A DNA stretch of 29,494 nt from a virus (Duplodnaviria > Heunggongvirae > Uroviricota > Caudoviricetes), in the IMG/VR virus record IMGVR_UViG_3300014922_000089, one strand, 5' to 3'. Position numbers and translations under genes: made by a program. Positions 6,498 through 21,256 of the stretch are shown here, one piece after another. Under the pieces are notes generated by a model. It did not search any database, was not told the origin of the DNA, and was given only the letters and a program-made list of their open reading frames with translations. The stretch's first letter is position 1; every line of letters begins with the position of its first letter.

Positions 6498-6757
6498 GTA
6501 AAAACACAACGTGATTTGATATGGCATTGAATGGCTTATGCGGAGCAGTTATGGGGCAGCAGAAGGTCAATAGCATGCTGAATTAGAAGGCTAAATGCTA
6601 TTGAGTGACTAGCATGTCGGTAAGGACAGCCGTTTGATCCTGGTCATAAAAGGCCATCCATTTAGTCTAATAAAATCATTGCGGGTAACCTTATGTCGAC
6701 GCATAATTCGTCTTGAGCGAAGTCTTGTCAGTCTTTCATCGTATTGATGATGGGCGC

Positions 6758-6787
6758 AAAAAAACCACCCTGGCAGGTGGTTTTTTT
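6758..6787. terminator. Bidirectional rho-independent terminator
   Basis: AAAAAAACCACC-CTGGCA-GGTGGTTTTTTT: a GC stem flanked by an A-run and a T-run, so it works on both strands. Downstream of A (+) and of the small minus-strand ORF. Confidence 0.6.
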
Positions 6788-6799
6788 GTTTGAAGCATA

Positions 6800-6913
6800 T
6801 TAAAGCATAATGCTGACATTGATATTACTGACGTTTACTGACAAACCACTCGGACTACCGTTTGGATAGCCAAAGAGGGCCAGAACGAGAATGCAGTAAT
6901 AGCATTTCTTCAT
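6800..6913 (-). CDS. Small hydrophobic protein (37 aa), hypothetical
   Basis: ATG at 6913 preceded by a perfect AGGAGG SD at the correct spacing. Product MKKCYYCILVLALFGYPNG... Terminator immediately downstream. The longer 88-aa track ORF has no RBS. Confidence 0.35.
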   Translation of the reverse strand: MKKCYYCILVLALFGYPNGSPSGLSVNVSNINVSIML

Positions 6914-7391
6914 ATTGCCTCCTGTAAGTAGAGGGCAACTTCCACCGGTATATGCGCTTCTTAGGTGGAATGACTTTTGAGCGAAGTCTTGCCCTGAAAT
7001 AATGCTCTGTTTAAACGCAAAGTGATTTGGCATATCACCGAACAGAGAGCCGGAAAAACACAACATATAGTATGTCGTTGTTTCTAGACATACATTCTAT
7101 GTTGTGTAACAAGGGCTTTGCATTAAACATGTTTGAGATTTTATTGATGTAGCTCAAAGTAAAAAACAGAGACTACGGATGATAAGGTCTTGAAAGCAAT
7201 GTAAATTTTTTAAAGTTGCCAATTGCTTAAAAATGTACAGTTGCGGTATGGCGTACTTAAAAAGCTATGCATGCAACAAGTGAATGTTTTTGCATGCGTT
7301 GGGGATGTCCGTTCAGGCTGCGTGCGGTCAGGACTGGTGCGGATCCATAGTATCTATGCAACTGCATTAAAACCGCCCCGTGAAACGGGCG

Positions 7392-7410
7392 GGCGAGGCG
7401 GGGAAAGCAC
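7392..7410. other. cos site (19-nt cohesive-end sequence GGCGAGGCGGGGAAAGCAC)
   Basis: Exact match to the P2 cohesive-end sequence as recalled. Correct side and orientation relative to Q. Confidence 0.5.
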
Positions 7411-7424
7411 TGCGCGCAAAATGT

Positions 7425-7570
7425 TCTTGAAATATTTGTGACATAAGCTAAGACACAAAATGATTGAAGGGCAGAGCAAATCCTACAGTCCTATGCTATT
7501 GTCTCATGTAATGTAGATAAGTTGAAAATTATCTTAAAATATAAGAGTAAAGACATTAAAAGGATTGGTT
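7425..7570 (+). promoter_or_regulatory. AT-rich putative promoter / 5' UTR of the cargo gene
   Basis: Abrupt shift to AT-rich sequence right after cos. TTGAAA and TATAAG-like hexamers present. AAAGGA SD 8 nt upstream of the ATG at 7571. No confident -35/-10 pair resolved. Confidence 0.3.
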
Positions 7571-8896
7571 ATGAATAATAACTCTAAGTTATTAAGCTCT
7601 ATCTCGGTTGAATCTGATTTCGAGAACCTTATAAAACTATATGCAAATGAGTTATTTGGTGGTGAAACATATCTGATCGGTGGTCCTTGGGATAATGGAA
7701 AGGATTTGGTAATAAAAAAGGGGAATAGAGAGTTAAAGCAAGCTGTACAAATATCTATTCAAGAGAAAAATATTGAAAGTAAGATTGCTCAAGATATTAA
7801 AAAAGTGGCGAAATTGGTTGATGATCATTATTACCCGCCTGTATTATATTTTTTTTGGAGTCATTCAATATCTGAGCATTTATTGGATAAGATAAGAACA
7901 AATGCTCTTAAGGAAGATTTGATTAGATTGGAGTTTTATGATGCCAAACGAATCTCTCAAGATATTACAGATAAATACCCAGGGTTATTGAATTACTTAA
8001 TAAAAGATATACATAAGATAAGTTCTAATACTGAAGATGCAATTAACTTGCAACAAAGAGCATTTTATGAATATTTATTGTTAAGCAAAGATAGTGCTAA
8101 TTTAAAAAATGAAATAATAAAAGCTAGTATTATGTCTAATTTATATGATGGCGGGAAGTCTGCTGATGATATTCTAGAGAATCTAAAAGGTGTTAGTCTT
8201 ACAAAACGTAGTTTACAGGGTAGACTGCAAAACCTAATTCATCAAAATAAAATTAGATTGAATGATGGTATATATAGCCTGTCACCAGAGGAAATTAAAA
8301 AACTTGAGAATATAAATCTCCGTGAAATTGTTAGAAAAGAAGAGTTGTTATCAGTAATAAATAATGAGTTGCCCAGAAATACAAGTAAGAATCTGGCTGT
8401 TCAAGTTGTTGATTTAATAATAAAGGCTTATGAAGAATCAATAAATGTCCAATTAACAGAAAGTAAATTTGAGCCTCCAAAATTACAGATATTCAAAACT
8501 ATAGTACATAATTTAAAGGTGTTGATACGGCAGGAATATGATTTGGATGATGAGTCTTCGGATGCTTTAGCAAAAAAGCTAATGGAGTTGGCTGGTCAAA
8601 ATGACTATTTATCCGAGCATTGCTCTGCTAAATTATGTGTGAATCTGTTAAGTGATCGGAAATTAGAGAAATATATTGAAAATAAAAATTTTTATATCTA
8701 TTTTGATGCGCCTGTTCTTATTCCATATTTGATAACTCTTATGTTTGGAGATTTTGAGCTTTTTGATAAGTCGATTAAAAATATAAATTTACTGAGAGAG
8801 TGCATAAATCCCCTCAAAAATAAACATCTGAGAGTTTCTAATGAACATTTTGAAGAAACTGCAAGGCACTACTCTGAAGCTGAAAAATTAAGTTAG
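7571..8896 (+). CDS. Cargo protein, N-terminal segment (441 aa); possible Mrr-like PD-(D/E)xK nuclease motif
   Basis: ATG at 7571 with SD. AT-rich with K/N/I-rich codon usage, foreign to the phage backbone. Motif GGPWDNGKDLVI...IQEK resembles Mrr-type GGxxDxGxD...QxK. Ends at an in-frame TAG (8894-8896). Confidence 0.7.
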   Translation: MNNNSKLLSSISVESDFENLIKLYANELFGGETYLIGGPWDNGKDLVIKKGNRELKQAVQISIQEKNIESKIAQDIKKVAKLVDDHYYPPVLYFFWSHSISEHLLDKIRTNALKEDLIRLEFYDAKRISQDITDKYPGLLNYLIKDIHKISSNTEDAINLQQRAFYEYLLLSKDSANLKNEIIKASIMSNLYDGGKSADDILENLKGVSLTKRSLQGRLQNLIHQNKIRLNDGIYSLSPEEIKKLENINLREIVRKEELLSVINNELPRNTSKNLAVQVVDLIIKAYEESINVQLTESKFEPPKLQIFKTIVHNLKVLIRQEYDLDDESSDALAKKLMELAGQNDYLSEHCSAKLCVNLLSDRKLEKYIENKNFYIYFDAPVLIPYLITLMFGDFELFDKSIKNINLLRECINPLKNKHLRVSNEHFEETARHYSEAEKLS

Positions 8897-8959
8897 TTTG
8901 TAACTGAAGATTTAATTAGTCAACTTGGTGAGTCGAAAAATGTATACTTTAATGTTTAT

Positions 8960-9832
8960 ATGCGGTGGAAAAACAAACAGCCTAAACGTACAGACTTTTA
9001 CGATTTTACTTATGCTTTTCTAGGGTTGGATAAAGATGATATTTATGCGGGATATAAGCATGACACATTTGCGCAATGCATTCATAATTTACTAGCGTCA
9101 GCAAATATTGTTGTAATTGATAATAAAGACTCGGTGTCACAAGACTTTGTATTTAAAATAAAGCAAAAACTTAAAAGGGATTTGAATTCTTCACGTCCCG
9201 TTCGAGCCATAGAAAATGATGTTATATGTGCTGCAACTTTGAGTGATGAAACCCTACATCTTGATTCCAATGGTTACTTCAGTACTCCCATGCTAATAAC
9301 ACTTGATAGATCTCAATATCTATTGAGAAGCATAGTAAGAAATGAAAGGAGACATGCTGAATGGTTGGTTTATACCCCTCAAAGAGCAATTGAACGTCTT
9401 TCCTTGGTGGGTTTAAAAATATCATCGGAATCGTTAAAGGATGGTGTTTTAGCAACCATATCAGAAGAATATTTCTTTAAAGAAAGTTCCAGTAGTTTGA
9501 TTGATACTTTGGCTATTATCATTGGAGATAATCAAGCAAGGCAAGGAGATGTTATTAGGCTTGCATCGCTTTTAAAAAGAAAGGTCAATGAGGAATCTAT
9601 TGAGAATTCAGAAATTGATATTGAACACTATAATAACATTAGTTATGTGCTTCTTTTCATTCATCGTGAATTTAAATCTGAATTTTCAAATATAATAAAA
9701 ATTTTTGCTGAGGATAGTAGGCGAGATAAACTGGTTGAAGTTTTGTTATCCACTATTCAAGGAGTTTTTGATGAGAGTAAAAAGGAAATCTTGCGCTCAA
9801 ATATAGGACGGTTGTTGGCTGAAATGGGATGA
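8960..9832 (+). CDS. Cargo protein, C-terminal segment (290 aa); same frame as 7571-8896, no own SD
   Basis: Same reading frame as the upstream ORF. The 63 nt between them are open in that frame. No SD upstream of the ATG at 8960. Probably a continuation of one gene interrupted by an amber codon. Confidence 0.55.
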   Translation: MRWKNKQPKRTDFYDFTYAFLGLDKDDIYAGYKHDTFAQCIHNLLASANIVVIDNKDSVSQDFVFKIKQKLKRDLNSSRPVRAIENDVICAATLSDETLHLDSNGYFSTPMLITLDRSQYLLRSIVRNERRHAEWLVYTPQRAIERLSLVGLKISSESLKDGVLATISEEYFFKESSSSLIDTLAIIIGDNQARQGDVIRLASLLKRKVNEESIENSEIDIEHYNNISYVLLFIHREFKSEFSNIIKIFAEDSRRDKLVEVLLSTIQGVFDESKKEILRSNIGRLLAEMG

Positions 9833-9847
9833 TTTCTTGGTAATTGA

Positions 9848-9884
9848 ACGGCACTATGGTCGTTGCTTATAGTGCCGTTTTAAG
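9848..9884 (+). terminator. Rho-independent terminator after the cargo gene
   Basis: Perfect 10-bp stem ACGGCACTAT / ATAGTGCCGT with an 11-nt loop, followed by TTTTAA. Confidence 0.55.
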
Positions 9885-9923
9885 GTGTCGTGCCATTATG
9901 AATGGCATATCCGAGTTTATATA

Positions 9924-10958
9924 TTAGGTATCGCAAGTATCTAGTGAGTAGTTTTTAAAGTGGATGACCTCCTGACCGAGCCAGCCGTTTATTTCCCGAA
10001 TTCTGTCCTGTAGCGGGATAAGCTCATTGCGGACAAAGACCTTTGCCACTTTCTCAATATCGCCCAGCGACCCGACGTTCTCCGGCTTGCCGCCCATCAA
10101 CTGAAAAGGGATGCGGTGCGCGTCCAGCAGGTCAGCGGCGCTGGCTTTTTTGATATTAAAAAAATCGTCCTTCGTCGCCACTTCACTGAGCGGGATAATT
10201 TTAATGCCGTCGGCTTTCCCCTGCGGGGCATAGAGAAACAGGTTTTTAAAGTTGTTGCGGCCTTTCGACTTCACCATGTTTTCGCGGAGCACTTCGATAT
10301 CGTTGCGATCCTGCACGGCATCAGTGACGTACATGATGTATCCGGCATGTGCGCCGTTTTCGTAATACTTGCGGCGGAACAGCGTGGCCGACTCATTCAG
10401 CCAGGCAGAGTTAAGGGCGCTGAGATATTCCGGCAGGCCGTACAGCTCCTGATTAATATCCGGCTCCAGCAGGTGAAATACGGAGCCGGGCGCGAAAGGT
10501 GTCGGCTCGTTGAAGGACGGCACCCACCAGTAAACATCCTCCTCCACGCCACGGCGGGTATATTTTGCCGGTGAGGTTTCCAGTCTGATGATCTTACCGG
10601 TGGTGCTGTAACGCTTTTCCAGAAACGCATTACCGAACACCAGAAAATCCAGCACAAAGCGGCTGAAATCCTGTTGTGAAAGCCACGGATGCGGGATAAA
10701 TGTCGAGGCCAGAATATTACGTTTGACGTAAATCGGTGAGCTGTGATGCACGGCAGCACGCAGGCTTTTTGCCAGACCGGTAAAGCTGACCGGTGGCTCA
10801 TACCATCTGCCGTTACTGATGCACTCGACGTAATCCAGAATGTCACGGCGGTCGAGTACCGGCACCGGCTCACCAAAGGTGAATGCCTCCATTTTCGGGG
10901 CGCTGGCGGTCATTTTTTTTGCCGCAGGTTGCGGTGTTTTCCCTTTTTTCTTGCTCAT
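9924..10958 (-). CDS. Q: Portal protein Q (344 aa)
   Basis: 344 aa, as P2 Q. Leftward operon with P. Confidence 0.9.
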   Translation of the reverse strand: MSKKKGKTPQPAAKKMTASAPKMEAFTFGEPVPVLDRRDILDYVECISNGRWYEPPVSFTGLAKSLRAAVHHSSPIYVKRNILASTFIPHPWLSQQDFSRFVLDFLVFGNAFLEKRYSTTGKIIRLETSPAKYTRRGVEEDVYWWVPSFNEPTPFAPGSVFHLLEPDINQELYGLPEYLSALNSAWLNESATLFRRKYYENGAHAGYIMYVTDAVQDRNDIEVLRENMVKSKGRNNFKNLFLYAPQGKADGIKIIPLSEVATKDDFFNIKKASAADLLDAHRIPFQLMGGKPENVGSLGDIEKVAKVFVRNELIPLQDRIREINGWLGQEVIHFKNYSLDTCDT

Positions 10959-17672: not shown

Positions 17673-18085
17673 TGATTGTGCTGGTCGTGTTGTTATCGCT
17701 GGCGGTGACCGGTCTGTTTCTGGTGAAACACAAAAATGCCAGCCTGCGCGCCTCGCTGGACAGGGCGAATAACGTCGCCAGTGAACAGCAGACGACCATC
17801 ACCATGCTGAAAAATCAGCTTCATGTTGCCATCACCAGGGCAGACAAAAACGAGCTGGCGCAGGTGGCACTGCGTCAGGAACTGGAGAACGCCGCGAAGC
17901 GTGAAGCACAGCGCGAGAAAACCATCACGAGGTTACTTAATGAAAACGAAGATTTTCGCCGCTGGTATGGTGCTGACCTGCCTGATGCTGTGCGCCGGTT
18001 GCACCAGCGCCCCGCCTGCACCGACGCCAGTGATTGTCGCCAACGCCTGCCCGAAAGTGAGCCTTTGCCCGATGCCGGGCAGTGA
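17660..18085 (+). CDS. lysB: LysB (Rz-like inner-membrane spanin), 141 aa
   Basis: N-terminal transmembrane helix followed by a coiled-coil region. 141 aa. Confidence 0.75.
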   Translation: MSKLMIVLVVLLSLAVTGLFLVKHKNASLRASLDRANNVASEQQTTITMLKNQLHVAITRADKNELAQVALRQELENAAKREAQREKTITRLLNENEDFRRWYGADLPDAVRRLHQRPACTDASDCRQRLPESEPLPDAGQ

Positions 18086-18230
18086 CCCGCAGACGAACGG
18101 CGATTTAAGTGCCGATATCCGGCAGCTTGAGAACGCGCTGGCACGCTGTGCCAGCCAGGTAAAAATGATTAAACACTGTCAGGATGAAAACGATGCTCAA
18201 ACCCGACAGCCTGCGCAGGGCGCTGACTGA
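17940..18230 (+). CDS. lysC: LysC (Rz1-like outer-membrane lipoprotein spanin), 96 aa, embedded out of frame in lysB
   Basis: MKTKIFAAGMVLTCLMLCAGC: signal peptide plus lipobox. Proline-rich. Overlaps the lysB 3' end in another frame. Confidence 0.7.
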   Translation: MKTKIFAAGMVLTCLMLCAGCTSAPPAPTPVIVANACPKVSLCPMPGSDPQTNGDLSADIRQLENALARCASQVKMIKHCQDENDAQTRQPAQGAD

Positions 18231-18414
18231 TGCCGTCACGGTGCTGAAAACCAGTCCCGAGATGCTGCGGATATTCGTGGATACTGGATGTGCAAAGGCT
18301 CCTGGTCATATGCAAATAACAAAATCATTACGGATACCGGATGTGGTGATATCCACCTGGCTGGTTGTGTCGTCGAGGTCATGGGAACAAAATCTGCAAT
18401 CACCATCCGAGTGA
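18193..18414 (+). pseudogene. R: Truncated tail completion gene R (only about 32 N-terminal codons R-like, then junk)
   Basis: MLKPDSLRRALTDAVTVLKTSPEMLRIFVDTG matches the gpR N-terminus as recalled. The frame then runs into unrelated sequence. S, V, W, J and I are absent. Confidence 0.5.
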
Positions 18415-19394
18415 CAACGCCGACAACATCAAGTGGTGGCGGTACAACCAGCGCGCAATTCACTTACATTAATCATGGGGACGGCTACTCCCCCGGCTGG
18501 CGTCGTGACTGGAATCGTCAGGGCGACGCAATGACCGGAACGATTAATCAGGACGGCGGAAGCCAGAATACCTATATGTCTACGGCCTTATGTTCAGGCA
18601 CCAGAGGCGGCAAAAAATATCTCAGAAAGTTTCGTGGTGGAGAAGGAGACACTATCTGGCATGAAACAGTACAGGGCGGGGTTGTTCGCTGGGCGACTGG
18701 TAATACTGATGCTCAGGAAGAATTATCACTCAGCTCCGCTTATGGTCTCCGTTCAAGAGGTGAGATTACATCAAGCAGTGCTAATGGTCTGCGCATTGCT
18801 TATGGCAATTATGGATTCTTTATCAGGAATGATGGCAGCAGCACTTATTTTATGTTGACTAAATCAGGTGACAGATTAGGCACTTATAATAATTTAAGAC
18901 CACTGATTATAAATGATGCCACGGGTGCTGTATCAATGGGGCATGGCCTGAGTGTTACTGGTGATATTGTCTCAAGTACCAAAGTACGTGCCGGTAGCGG
19001 GAAAAAATTCACGGTCAGCAGCAGTAATACATCCACGAAGGAAGCCGCATTCAATTTGTGGGGAAACTCAAGTCGTCCGGTGGTGGCTGAATTAGGTGAT
19101 GATGCAGGCTGGCATTTTTACAGTCAGAGAAATACAGATAACAGCATCACTTTTGCTGTTAACGGTCAGGTATCACCATCTAACTATAGTAATTTTGATT
19201 CCCGTTATGTACGCGATATCCGGCTTGGGACTCGAGTTGTCCAGACCATGCAGAAAGGGGTGATGTATGAGAAAGCAGGGCACGTAATTACCGGGCTTGG
19301 TATTGTCGGTGAAGTCGATGGTGATGATCCCGCAGTATTCAGACCAATACAAAAATACATCAATGGCACATGGTATAACGTCGCACAGGTGTAA
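18288..19394 (+). pseudogene. H: 3' fragment of tail fibre gene H (C-terminal about 368 codons), no N-terminal region
   Basis: Gly/Ser/Thr-rich fibre-like sequence ending immediately before G. P2 H is 669 aa, so the 5' half is missing. Confidence 0.6.
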
Positions 19395-19925: not shown

Positions 19926-20076
19926 GTTGTATGAGCTGACATATCTATAGCACAGAGTAAAGCCTAATCTGACAGTCCGCTCTGTGCAAGGAGCGGACAT
20001 TACCTAACACATTGGTAACCTTCACAGATTTACGCGTTCTACATAGTTAGCATTGTATCTGATGAGTTATCATGTT

Positions 20077-20856
20077 TTAAAATATCCAACTGATAAATCC
20101 ACCTGAATACTTTTCACTAATTTTGATTGCATAAAGATCATGAAGAGTTATAAATAAATCATTATCTTCTTTGAAAATTAACTCCTCATATTCTGCCATT
20201 ATCAAATTATGCTGTGTTGTTAGTTTAGATATGTTATCTATTTCACTGGCAAGCATGGATTTGTTTACATTGGTGTGTGGATCCATGGCAATATATTTCC
20301 GCATCAATGGAATTAGTTGATCAGGGTCTATATTTTTTGCATTTTCCTTTGCTTTTTTTTGTCTTTCTGAATAGATGGAGTTAATTGTGTCAGTGTGTTT
20401 TTTCGCCAGTCTCTTAAACTCTGGATATGAACCAGTAACTAATGCAAGCTCTTCGTACTTAAGGAATAAATCGATATTGCATTTTTTTACCGTCATTTCA
20501 AGATCTTCAACTCTTTTTTTTAACTCTTCATTTGTTTTAATAAGAGACATCGGGAGAACTTCATAATGTTGTCCTAATTCTGAATCAGGGCTCATTGCCA
20601 TATGTACTATTTCATTATACATGAGCTGATAAGAAGCAGATAACTCTCCATACTTTAGAAATAGTTCATTATGTGAAGATGAACAAGAACTTTGTAATTT
20701 CATCATTGGCCTAAAGTAATCCTTTATAAACTCCTCCTGAAGATCTTGGTCTTTTTTGTAGCTCTCTAGGATTCCAGCAAAAAGAAATGACCCTAAAGAT
20801 ATAGAGATTATGGATATTAGCAATTGACTAAGGAATGATTGTGTTTCATTACTCAT
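20077..20856 (-). CDS. AT-rich cargo protein, 259 aa, N-terminal transmembrane helix (Z/fun-position gene)
   Basis: ATG at 20856 with AAGGA SD. One predicted transmembrane helix (LSQLLISIISISLGSFLFAGIL), then a helical soluble region. Opposite strand to the late genes. AT-rich. Confidence 0.65.
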   Translation of the reverse strand: MSNETQSFLSQLLISIISISLGSFLFAGILESYKKDQDLQEEFIKDYFRPMMKLQSSCSSSHNELFLKYGELSASYQLMYNEIVHMAMSPDSELGQHYEVLPMSLIKTNEELKKRVEDLEMTVKKCNIDLFLKYEELALVTGSYPEFKRLAKKHTDTINSIYSERQKKAKENAKNIDPDQLIPLMRKYIAMDPHTNVNKSMLASEIDNISKLTTQHNLIMAEYEELIFKEDNDLFITLHDLYAIKISEKYSGGFISWIF

Positions 20857-21133
20857 AAAACATCCTTAAAAAATAACACGAAAAGTGACTCCTGACAGGG
20901 AAGAAACGACAGGTCGGAAACAAACTTAACTGATGAGTTAGCCGTAGTCCAGAACCTTGTTTGAACACTTAGTGTGACTGTTTGCATCTCAGGAATTTGT
21001 GCCAATAACATTTGAATCCTTATAATTTATTTAAATCAAATTTAGTTACTCGCTCAAAGCAGGCTGTCAGATTTGATAGCATTTGGGCTATGTAAATTGT
21101 CAGGCGGAAAATGAGTGAGTACAAATCAGGACA

Positions 21134-21160
21134 GGCGGGCGAATTGCCCGCCTTTTCTTT
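21134..21160 (+). terminator. Terminator-like hairpin (GGCGGGC-GAATT-GCCCGCC + TTTTCTTT) upstream of FI
   Basis: Perfect 7-bp GC stem followed by a T-rich run on the + strand. Confidence 0.45.
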
Positions 21161-21256
21161 ATCTGTTGTTTCATCCACTGACCAGCCAGGTCAAATAGCG
21201 TCTCATGCTCTGCACAACAGAAAATAGTTGCACCCATTAACCACGGAGTTAAACGG

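What the first reader, a model, noticed from the sequence alone, without database searches (positions are those of the whole stretch)
7425..9890. AT-rich cargo island between cos and portal gene Q: candidate undescribed defence/accessory gene of about 750 codons
P2 has only a short non-coding stretch between cos and the Q stop. Here about 2.4 kb of strongly AT-rich DNA is inserted, with its own SD (7558-7562), a long ORF and its own terminator (9848-9884). Codon usage (K/N/I/L-rich) contrasts with the GC-rich phage backbone, indicating horizontal acquisition. P2-family prophages are known to carry variable anti-phage cargo around the A/cos/Q junction (P2 itself carries tin and old there). The product does not resemble Tin or Old: there is no Walker A motif. 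The N-terminal region has a GGPWDNGKDLVI...(19 aa)...IQEK pattern that resembles the Mrr-type PD-(D/E)xK nuclease signature (GGxGDGGIDG...QxK). I consider that assignment tentative. The rest of the protein is predicted helical with no motif I recognise.
Basis: partly seen in the sequence, partly recalled or inferred. Interest (0 to 1): 0.85.

Follow-up and report, generated by a model that had tools for sequence, protein, structure and literature searches.

The report
Broken candidate phage-defence nuclease gene
An AT-rich insert beside the packaging site of a decayed P2-like E. coli prophage carries a nonsense-inactivated copy of an unnamed 753-residue gene with two nuclease-type domains and a DNA-binding domain, which is probably, though not demonstrably, a new single-gene anti-phage defence protein.

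Summary
Window 7418-9935 is a 2.5-kb island of about 30% GC that replaces the roughly 170 bp lying between cos (7392-7410) and the portal gene Q in other P2-like phages. It holds one 753-codon frame (7571-9832), broken by an in-frame TAG at 8894-8896.

An intact allele has CAG at that codon. It is annotated in E. coli 1218KP and its product occurs on 215 contigs. The two alleles differ by 8 synonymous changes plus the nonsense change, so this copy is a recently inactivated pseudogene.

- an N-terminal Mrr-like PD-(D/E)xK nuclease fold;
- a winged helix;
- a PIN domain whose D-E-D-D catalytic residues are invariant or nearly so across 111 diverse relatives;
- an unassigned helical C-terminal region.

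The family has about 500 clusters, is scattered across several phyla, always occurs as a solitary gene, and is often found in prophage hotspots and genomic islands. In some relatives the N-terminal nuclease is replaced by a DUF4062 domain (a TIR-like NADase) or by a possible HEPN domain. This swapping is typical of immune effectors.

Best reading: a new single-gene anti-phage nuclease architecture, dead in this window. Defence activity is inferred, not shown.

The parts
7392..7410 (.). P2 cos cohesive-end sequence, the left boundary of the cargo slot
   Evidence: Exact match to GGCGAGGCGGGGAAAGCAC. The same motif is present in L001, and a 3-mismatch version lies upstream of the Rahnella homologue.
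7418..9935 (+). AT-rich cargo island that replaces about 174 bp of the cos-Q spacer found in cargo-free P2-like phages
   Evidence: BLASTN breakpoints against KC618326. GC is 0.26-0.36 here, against more than 0.5 in the flanks.
7560..7564 (+). Shine-Dalgarno-like AAGGA, 6 nt before the ATG
   Evidence: Read directly from the sequence.
7571..8896 (+). 5' part of the gene (codons 1-441 plus the premature TAG)
   Evidence: The 441-aa product is recorded on 8 contigs.
7571..8020 (+). N-terminal Mrr-like PD-(D/E)xK nuclease-fold domain (aa 1-150). Conserved residues: G38, D41, G43, D45, Q60, S/T62, K71, D75, K78, D124.
8102..8284 (+). Winged helix-turn-helix domain (about aa 178-238)
8285..8665 (+). 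Helical linker or bundle (aa 239-365), fold unassigned
   Evidence: Secondary structure of the model, pLDDT about 75-87. No specific fold match.
8666..9424 (+). PIN nuclease domain with a helical insert (aa 366-618). Catalytic codons: D379 at 8705-8707, E429 at 8855-8857, D550 at 9218-9220, D579 at 9305-9307.
8894..8896 (+). Premature TAG (codon 442). The intact allele has CAG (Gln). It cuts the PIN domain between E429 and D550.
8897..9832 (+). 3' part of the same frame (codons 443-753 plus TGA). ORF finders call it as a separate 290-aa ORF starting at 8960.
   Evidence: The 290-aa product is annotated in E. coli as WP_257251279.1 and seen on 14 contigs.
9425..9829 (+). C-terminal helical domain (aa 619-753), fold unassigned
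9846..9880 (+). Stem-loop after the stop codon, followed by TTTT. A possible weak intrinsic terminator lying between the convergent cargo gene and Q.
   Evidence: Fold energy -22.3 kcal/mol, z = -3.1. Not called by the consensus terminator scan.
9924..10958 (-). Portal gene Q, the right boundary of the slot
   Evidence: ORF. Annotated as 'phage portal protein' in L001.

Best explanation
The island carries one gene of an unnamed family of solitary proteins of about 750-780 residues. These are most likely single-gene anti-phage immune nucleases carried as cargo by prophages and genomic islands.

Shown here: the protein has four parts. They are an N-terminal Mrr-like PD-(D/E)xK nuclease domain, a winged helix, a PIN domain that keeps the D-E-D-D catalytic tetrad, and a helical C-terminal region.

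Inferred model: the conserved part of the protein (winged helix, helical linker, PIN domain, helical tail) holds the protein inactive and senses infection, through a phage nucleic acid or a phage protein. Once activated, the PIN domain cleaves RNA or structured nucleic acid, and the swappable N-terminal effector acts as well. That effector is a DNase-type domain here, and an NADase-type or possible HEPN RNase-type domain in some relatives. The outcome would be destruction of phage nucleic acid or abortive infection of the host cell.

In this window the gene is dead. A C-to-T change makes codon 442 a TAG. The resulting product lacks two of the four PIN catalytic residues and the whole C-terminal region.
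For: Location:
- The island sits in the P2 gpA-cos-Q hotspot, where many validated defence systems reside (PMC9122126). In PMC13586616, 19% of P2-like elements have only unknown genes at their main defence locus; randomly chosen unknown genes from the equivalent P4 loci conferred protection in 6 of 8 tests.
- Divergent alleles occupy the same slot in other P2-like prophages: Rahnella at 71% identity and IMG/VR locus L040 at 64% identity, next to a KAP NTPase gene.
- Other copies lie at prophage ends, next to integrases, DndB or HEPN-family genes, on a conjugative plasmid, or alone in the chromosome. None has a conserved partner gene.
- The distribution is patchy across Proteobacteria, Bacteroidota, Verrucomicrobia, Cloacimonadota and Clostridia.

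Architecture:
- The AF2 models are confident: pLDDT 81 for the full length and 83.7 (pTM 0.81) for residues 362-753.
- The PIN catalytic residues are invariant or nearly so in 111 sequences that share about 20% identity.

Effector swapping:
- Relatives P0131 and P0147 keep the conserved part of the protein (E 6e-67 and 7e-59 to the family profile) but have a different N-terminus. P0131's N-terminus matches PADLOC defence candidate PDC-S60 at E 1e-47, and both give weak DUF4062 hits. DUF4062 is a TIR-like NADase used by the Swarozyc defence system (bioRxiv 10.64898/2026.05.01.722283).
- Seven other relatives carry a helical N-terminal domain with an invariant RNxxH motif.
- The partner proteins of short prokaryotic Argonautes show the same nuclease/NADase alternation, and one of their nuclease options is SMEK (PMC10810196). 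SMEK_N is weakly hit by 11 of 40 N-terminal domains in this family.

Selection and inactivation:
- The window allele differs from the intact allele by 8 synonymous, 0 missense and 1 nonsense change.
- The intact product is seen on 215 contigs, the truncated products on 8 and 14.
Against: - No experiment exists. No member of the family has a tested phenotype in the literature searched.
- No curated defence model matches the conserved part of the protein. DefenseFinder and HHpred could not be run.
- The N-terminal domain lacks the canonical lysine of (D/E/Q)xK. Its Pfam Mrr_cat score is below threshold (13.3 bits against a cut-off of 21).
- PIN Pfam models match only two relatives, both below threshold.
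- The HEPN assignment of the third N-terminal variant is weak: 1 of 7 sequences, E 0.0033.
- Some copies sit among housekeeping genes with no visible mobile element.
- The sensing step, the trigger and the substrates are pure inference.
- The copy in this window is inactivated and its prophage is defective, so nothing can be claimed for this strain.
Confidence: 0.55

Rival explanations
1. It is a Type IV (modification-dependent) restriction enzyme. The winged helix reads modified phage DNA, and the Mrr-like domain cuts it, as in Mrr, MspJI or AspBHI.
For: - Weak Mrr_cat hits occur in 24 of 40 members.
- A winged helix lies adjacent to the nuclease domain.
- Restriction-type cargo occurs in the same hotspot, for example a methylase plus HNH gene in the Pantoea prophage.
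Against: - The QxK lysine is replaced by S/T in the whole family.
- The most conserved part of the protein is the PIN domain, not the Mrr-like domain.
- Relatives replace the Mrr-like domain with an NADase-type domain while keeping the rest. That makes no sense if DNA cutting by the Mrr-like domain were the core activity.
- The domain order is reversed relative to Mrr.
Confidence: 0.12
2. It is a fused toxin-antitoxin-like addiction or stress module. An autoinhibited VapC-like PIN RNase would stabilise the mobile element that carries it, with no role against phages.
For: - The closest structural relatives of the PIN domain are VapC toxins and FitB.
- The gene is solitary and travels on mobile elements.
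- TA-type genes (YafO, RadC, YdaT) lie nearby in some loci.
Against: - There is no VapB-like partner gene in any context examined.
- At 750 residues with an extra nuclease domain and swappable NADase or possible HEPN heads, it looks like an immune effector set.
- The P2 hotspot is enriched for defence cargo (PMC9122126).
- Addiction and defence are not mutually exclusive.
Confidence: 0.1
3. It is a phage accessory gene with some other function, such as host takeover, anti-defence, or DNA or RNA processing for the phage's own life cycle.
For: - It sits next to cos and the packaging genes.
- It is found on predicted viral contigs.
- Function is unknown in every database.
Against: - It is absent from all 50,697 sequenced phage records and from all but one of 5,426 complete E. 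coli genomes, although 2,079 of them match the cos-proximal P2 sequence. The phage therefore does not need it.
- Homologues also sit outside phages, alone in chromosomes or on a plasmid.
- In other P2-like phages the same slot holds Fic, a retron or a methylase plus HNH gene.
Confidence: 0.12
4. The central alpha/beta domain is a degenerate DnaB/RecA-like ATPase domain, not a PIN domain.
For: The family profile for residues 366-625 hits the SPP1 G40P DnaB-like helicase at E 4e-6 (profile 39-206 against G40P 240-403). It also hits Geobacillus DnaB weakly, at E 0.15-0.29.
Against: - There is no Walker A motif.
- The four conserved acidic residues fall where a PIN domain has them: after strand 1, in the helix after strand 2, at a helix start after strand 3, and in a T-x-D after strand 4.
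- Only one helicase out of the many DnaB structures in the PDB scores significantly.
Confidence: 0.03

Closest known systems
VapC/FitB-type PIN-domain ribonucleases (PIN superfamily)
   Same: - The D-E-D-D acidic tetrad and the T-x-D motif are conserved across the family. The tetrad defines active PIN RNases (Senissar 2017, as cited in PMC12065111).
   Different: - The PIN domain is embedded in a 753-residue multidomain protein.
- It carries a helical insert of about 65 residues between the second helix and strand 3.
- There is no VapB antitoxin gene.
- No Pfam PIN model reaches threshold.
Mrr-like PD-(D/E)xK nucleases (Pfam Mrr_cat; AspBHI, AF1548), and the SMEK and DUF4365 effector nucleases of short prokaryotic Argonaute systems
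   Same: - It has the G-x-x-D-x-G-x-D ... Q signature.
- Weak Mrr_cat and SMEK_N profile hits occur in many members.
- As in pAgo partner proteins, the nuclease domain sits at the N-terminus and alternates with an NADase domain in relatives (PMC10810196).
   Different: - The catalytic lysine position holds S/T, and an invariant K71 sits on the following helix.
- All profile scores are below the curated cut-offs.
- There is no APAZ domain and no Argonaute partner.
Cargo of the P2 gpA-cos-Q hotspot (Old, Tin, and the systems tested by Rousset et al. 2022)
   Same: Same genomic slot, the same AT-rich horizontally acquired character, and the same single-gene or small-operon format (PMC9122126).
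   Different: - There is no sequence or domain relationship to Old (ATPase plus TOPRIM) or Tin.
- No PADLOC model matches.
- Here the cargo lies on the Q side of cos.
Fused toxin-antitoxin sensors such as CapRel(SJ46). The comparison is of logic only and is made from my own knowledge.
   Same: A single polypeptide in which a toxin-type enzymatic domain is presumably held inactive by its own flanking domains until a phage trigger binds. It is prophage-encoded.
   Different: The enzyme is different (a PIN nuclease, not a RelA/SpoT-type pyrophosphokinase). Autoinhibition and the trigger are entirely hypothetical here.
DUF4062 (TIR-like NADase) defence proteins: Swarozyc and PADLOC candidate PDC-S60
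   Same: Relatives of the window protein carry this domain at the position of the Mrr-like domain. Swarozyc also pairs it with an HTH/winged-helix sensor region.
   Different: The window protein itself has no DUF4062 domain. Swarozyc has no PIN domain according to the text searched (0 occurrences of 'PIN').

Membership tests
PIN domain superfamily | Three-layer alpha/beta/alpha PIN fold | tested here: met
   [not shown]
PIN domain superfamily | Four conserved acidic residues (D-E-D-D) at the canonical positions | tested here: met
   D379 is present in 110 of 111 sequences. E429, D550 and D579 are present in all 111. T577 (T/S) precedes D579. Their placement relative to the strands comes from the model's secondary structure.
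PIN domain superfamily | Match to a curated PIN profile above its threshold | tested here: not met
   Only PIN_12 (PF16289) matches, below threshold, in two relatives: E 0.0055 at 17.5 bits against a cut-off of 32, and E 6.7e-4. The window protein has no hit.
PIN domain superfamily | Metal-dependent nuclease activity | not testable with these tools
   Requires biochemistry.
VapBC toxin-antitoxin systems | Adjacent cognate antitoxin gene (VapB) | tested here: not met
   No conserved small upstream gene appears in any of about 15 contexts.
Mrr-like PD-(D/E)xK nucleases (Pfam Mrr_cat) | Restriction-endonuclease-like alpha-beta-beta-beta-alpha-beta core | tested here: met
   [not shown]
Mrr-like PD-(D/E)xK nucleases (Pfam Mrr_cat) | Catalytic D ... 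(D/E/Q)-x-K motif | tested here: inconclusive
   D41, D45 and Q60 are invariant in the 40-sequence N-terminal-domain alignment, but the lysine position holds S/T62. K71 is invariant on the next helix and might substitute for it.
Mrr-like PD-(D/E)xK nucleases (Pfam Mrr_cat) | Profile match above the gathering score | tested here: not met
   The window protein scores 13.3 bits against a cut-off of 21 (E 0.094). Of 40 relatives, 24 match weakly, the best at E 0.0018.
Type IV restriction enzyme Mrr | N-terminal Mrr_N winged helix followed by a C-terminal Mrr_cat domain, and nothing else | tested here: not met
   The order is reversed (nuclease first, then winged helix). About 500 further residues, including a PIN domain, follow.
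P2 Old / Tin and other catalogued defence systems (PADLOC-DB 2.0) | Match to any model of a known or candidate defence protein | tested here: not met
   No PADLOC families match at E up to 1 for the window protein, and none at E up to 0.01 for relatives P0057 and P0187. Only the swapped N-terminus of P0131 matches PDC-S60.
Short pAgo nuclease-APAZ effectors (SMEK / DUF4365) | APAZ domain and an adjacent short Argonaute gene | tested here: not met
   No APAZ or Argonaute Pfam hit is found in the protein or its neighbours. The resemblance is limited to weak SMEK_N hits.
DnaB/RecA-like ATPases | RecA fold with Walker A and Walker B motifs | tested here: not met
   [not shown]
Anti-phage defence system (functional class) | Protects cells from phage when expressed | not testable with these tools
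   Only contextual evidence is available: hotspot location, carriage on mobile elements, effector swapping.

The most novel reading that the evidence does not exclude
The family is a new class of NTPase-independent modular immune protein. In this reading, a conserved part made of a winged helix, a helical linker, a catalytically active PIN domain and a helical tail senses infection. It may do so by binding or cutting a phage-specific nucleic-acid structure. It then drives interchangeable N-terminal effectors: an Mrr-like DNase, a DUF4062 NADase or a possible HEPN-like RNase. This would be comparable in logic to the effector swapping of Avs, NLR-like and short-pAgo systems, but built on a PIN core.
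Probability: 0.3. Interest if true: 0.75.

Novelty: new variant of a known kind. Interest (0 to 1): 0.55.

Why it matters
If the intact allele protects against phage, it would add a defence architecture that none of the libraries used here recognises (PADLOC-DB 2.0, Pfam, NCBIfam, PHROGs). The architecture is a PIN-centred single protein with swappable nuclease or NADase heads, spread over several bacterial phyla.

It would also give a tractable E. coli entry point. The intact allele and the natural nonsense allele differ by one codon plus synonymous sites, so they form a ready-made isogenic pair.

The window also shows a rare case of a pseudogenised cargo gene in a P2 hotspot. A recent survey reports that such loci are usually swapped rather than left to decay (PMC13586616).

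Tried and rejected
Searches that found nothing useful:
- Single-sequence searches of Pfam, PADLOC, NCBIfam, PHROGs and PDB sequences.
- Foldseek against the PDB with the full model: nothing at E <= 0.001.
- The AFDB50 fold library was unavailable.
- A profile search of the 5.8-billion-protein set with the broad alignment returned only the same 46 proteins.
- tblastn against 50,697 phage records found nothing. Against plasmids it found only one hit, on a Raoultella conjugative plasmid.
- A genome scan with the broad alignment failed for lack of conserved stretches. The narrower alignment worked.
- Literature searches for the accession and for the domain combination found no description.

Ideas considered and rejected:
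- 'IQEK' as the Mrr QxK motif. Rejected because E65 and K66 are not conserved, whereas Q60-x-S/T62 is.
- The sigma-70 promoter scan gave fewer hits than the shuffled controls and no convincing promoter upstream of 7571. I make no promoter claim.
- The HEPN assignment for the third N-terminal variant is kept only as tentative.
Full report
**1. Observation**

The region is as described. GC falls to 0.26-0.36 between about 7400 and 9900, against 0.51-0.62 in the neighbouring phage genes. The exact P2 cos sequence is at 7392-7410. The portal gene Q is at 9924-10958 on the minus strand and the terminase gene P lies beyond it.

I compared the window with a P2-like phage that has nothing in this slot (KC618326). 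Homology ends at 7417 and resumes at 9936. In that phage about 170 bp separate cos from the Q stop codon. The window therefore has 2,518 bp of foreign DNA in place of a short spacer.

The island holds one reading frame, 7571-9832, of 753 codons. It is preceded by AAGGA at 7560-7564 and followed by a stable hairpin at 9846-9880 (z = -3.1) with only a short T run. The frame is interrupted by an in-frame TAG at 8894-8896.

**2. The copy in the window is a recent pseudogene of a real gene**

Only one of 5,426 complete E. coli genomes carries the island, although 2,079 of them match the adjacent cos-proximal P2 sequence. That genome is strain 1218KP. It annotates an uninterrupted 753-residue 'hypothetical protein', WP_053286240.1, in a differently decayed P2-like prophage at the same chromosomal site, between yegR and trhP.

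- At codon 442 the intact allele has CAG where the window has TAG.
- The other eight differences in the coding sequence are all synonymous. This argues for purifying selection until very recently.
- In the 15-billion-protein collection the intact product is on 215 contigs. The two fragments encoded by the window are on 8 and 14 contigs, all E. coli.
- The truncated product ends between the second and third catalytic residues of the PIN domain.
- The window's prophage is itself defective. After gene S (which ends at 18085) comes only the C-terminal part of a tail-fibre gene, and the baseplate genes are missing.

**3. What the protein is**

Sequence libraries give nothing above threshold: Pfam, PADLOC-DB 2.0, NCBIfam, PHROGs and PDB sequences.

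The protein has 46 close homologue clusters, all annotated as hypothetical. An exhaustive profile search finds 502 representative clusters at 50% identity, most of them 750-780 residues long and matching end to end. Members come from Gamma- and Betaproteobacteria, many Bacteroidota, Verrucomicrobia, Cloacimonadota and a Clostridia MAG.

The helical stretches at 239-365 and 619-753 match nothing specific.

**4. Conservation**

I aligned 111 family members that share only about 20% identity. The invariant columns are E429, N457, D550, D579 and P603. D379 is present in 110 of 111 sequences and T577 is T or S in all.

D379, E429, D550 and D579 fall where the PIN catalytic D-E-D-D tetrad falls: after strand 1, in the helix after strand 2, at a helix start after strand 3, and in a T-x-D after strand 4. 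The tetrad is defined as cited in PMC12065111. The PIN domain is therefore very probably catalytic and is the best-conserved part of the family.

In the N-terminal domain G38, D41, G43, D45, Q60 and K71 are invariant among 40 sequences.
- This matches the 'G-x-x-D-G-G-x-D ...
- The position of the Mrr lysine is S or T.
- Member-by-member Pfam scans give weak Mrr_cat hits in 24 of 40 sequences and weak SMEK_N hits in 11 of 40.
- SMEK is one of the nuclease effector domains fused to APAZ in short prokaryotic Argonaute systems (PMC10810196).

**5. An unexplained sequence hit**

**6. Context**

The gene is always solitary. It occupies the same gpA-cos-Q slot in a Rahnella P2-like prophage (71% identity; a cos-like site lies 310 bp upstream). 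It does so again in an IMG/VR P2-like element (64% identity, beside a KAP NTPase gene).

Elsewhere it lies:
- at the repressor end of a 186-like prophage in Pantoea;
- at the end of a Klebsiella prophage;
- next to integrases and DndB in Vibrio islands;
- in a Pseudomonas island with resolvases and an integrase;
- beside a truncated integrase and a HEPN_LA2681 gene;
- beside an AAA_15 ATPase and a Ymh-family gene in Sphingobacterium;
- on a conjugative Raoultella plasmid;
- inside a polysaccharide biosynthesis locus;
- alone between housekeeping genes.

The gpA-cos-Q locus is an established defence hotspot (PMC9122126). A 2026 survey reports that 19% of P2-like elements have only unknown genes at their main defence locus. 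In that study, randomly chosen unknown genes from the equivalent P4 loci conferred protection in 6 of 8 tests, and defence pseudogenes were rare (PMC13586616). Other P2-like phages carry Fic, a retron or DUF3850 in this slot.

**7. Effector swapping**

Nine of the best 150 relatives match the family profile only from about position 150 onward. They have a different N-terminal domain of about 200 residues.
- In P0131 this domain matches the N-terminus of PADLOC defence candidate PDC-S60 at E 1e-47, and in both P0131 and P0147 it weakly matches DUF4062. DUF4062 was recently shown to be a TIR-like NADase used in the Swarozyc defence system (bioRxiv 10.64898/2026.05.01.722283).
- In seven others it is a helical domain with an invariant Y..RNxxH motif. 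This is reminiscent of HEPN RNases, but only one weak HEPN_Apea hit supports it.

A nuclease head that alternates with an NADase head on a constant body is the pattern seen in short-pAgo partner proteins and other immune proteins.

**8. Mechanism**

Shown:
- the domain architecture;
- conservation of the catalytic residues;
- mobile, solitary and patchy distribution;
- the hotspot location;
- N-terminal domain swapping;
- inactivation of the gene in this window.

Inferred:
- The protein is a self-contained immune nuclease.
- The conserved body (winged helix, helical linker, PIN domain, helical tail) keeps it inactive and senses a phage nucleic acid or protein.
- Activation releases PIN-mediated cleavage of RNA or structured nucleic acid together with the N-terminal effector, giving direct restriction or abortive infection.

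I put the defence role at about 0.55. The specific sensing and activation scheme is well below that.

Rivals are a Type IV restriction enzyme, a fused TA-like addiction module, and a non-defence phage accessory gene. They are listed with their tests in the rival explanations.

**9. Comparison with known families, and novelty**

At the fold level the protein contains a PIN domain and an Mrr-like nuclease domain. It fails the curated profile thresholds of both. It lacks the Mrr lysine and has no VapB partner. It matches no catalogued defence system.

I found no description of this architecture in the papers searched. Those libraries are incomplete, and DefenseFinder could not be run.

I rate it a new variant of a known kind: a single-gene nuclease-based defence candidate in a known hotspot. 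It is of moderate interest and easy to test, because intact and nonsense alleles exist in nature.

Noticed in passing
window 19930-21250 (ORF 20077-20856, minus strand): A second AT-rich cargo segment (GC about 0.30-0.35) lies between the tail-fibre assembly gene and FI. This is the P2 Z/fun hotspot. It encodes a 259-residue protein with a hydrophobic N-terminal segment and no Pfam or PADLOC match, which makes it another unassigned candidate accessory or defence gene.
   Followed up: partly
window 18085-19394: The prophage looks defective. After gene S (which ends at 18085) the next ORF (18288-19394, 368 aa) is only the C-terminal part of a tail-fibre protein (Gp34_trimer domain). The baseplate genes V, W, J and I are missing. 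The related prophage in E. coli 1218KP is decayed in a different way: gpA and the terminase gene are truncated and the head genes are missing.
   Followed up: partly
[not shown]
   Followed up: yes
window 6498-7391: About 900 bp between the end of gpA and cos has intermediate GC (about 0.36-0.44) and no ORF longer than 88 codons. Part of it is 89% identical to Peduovirus P2 records. This is where P2 carries tin and old, so the A side of cos is essentially empty here while the Q side is filled.
   Followed up: no
L010 10001-12271 (Enterobacter cloacae complex): A 54%-identical homologue sits alone between baeR and the trhP (peptidase U32) gene, with no prophage genes around it. In E. coli, trhP and baeR flank the right end of the prophage. 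This could be a remnant left after prophage loss, or an independent insertion.
   Followed up: no
L044 7965-10270 (IMG/VR UViG_2737471854_000004): A homologue at 43% identity in a lambdoid-type prophage appears split into ORFs of 491 and 181 residues. It may be a second, independent pseudogenisation. It lies next to a truncated integrase and a HEPN_LA2681 gene.
   Followed up: no
L012 10001-12442 (metagenome contig, Bacteroidota-like): The DUF4062-headed relative P0131 is inserted in the middle of a polysaccharide (capsule or O-antigen type) biosynthesis gene cluster, on the same strand as its neighbours.
   Followed up: no
window 8894-8896: The premature stop is an amber codon derived from a Gln codon. 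A supE-type (glnV) amber suppressor would insert Gln and restore the wild-type residue. Whether the host strain carries one cannot be seen from this window.
   Followed up: no
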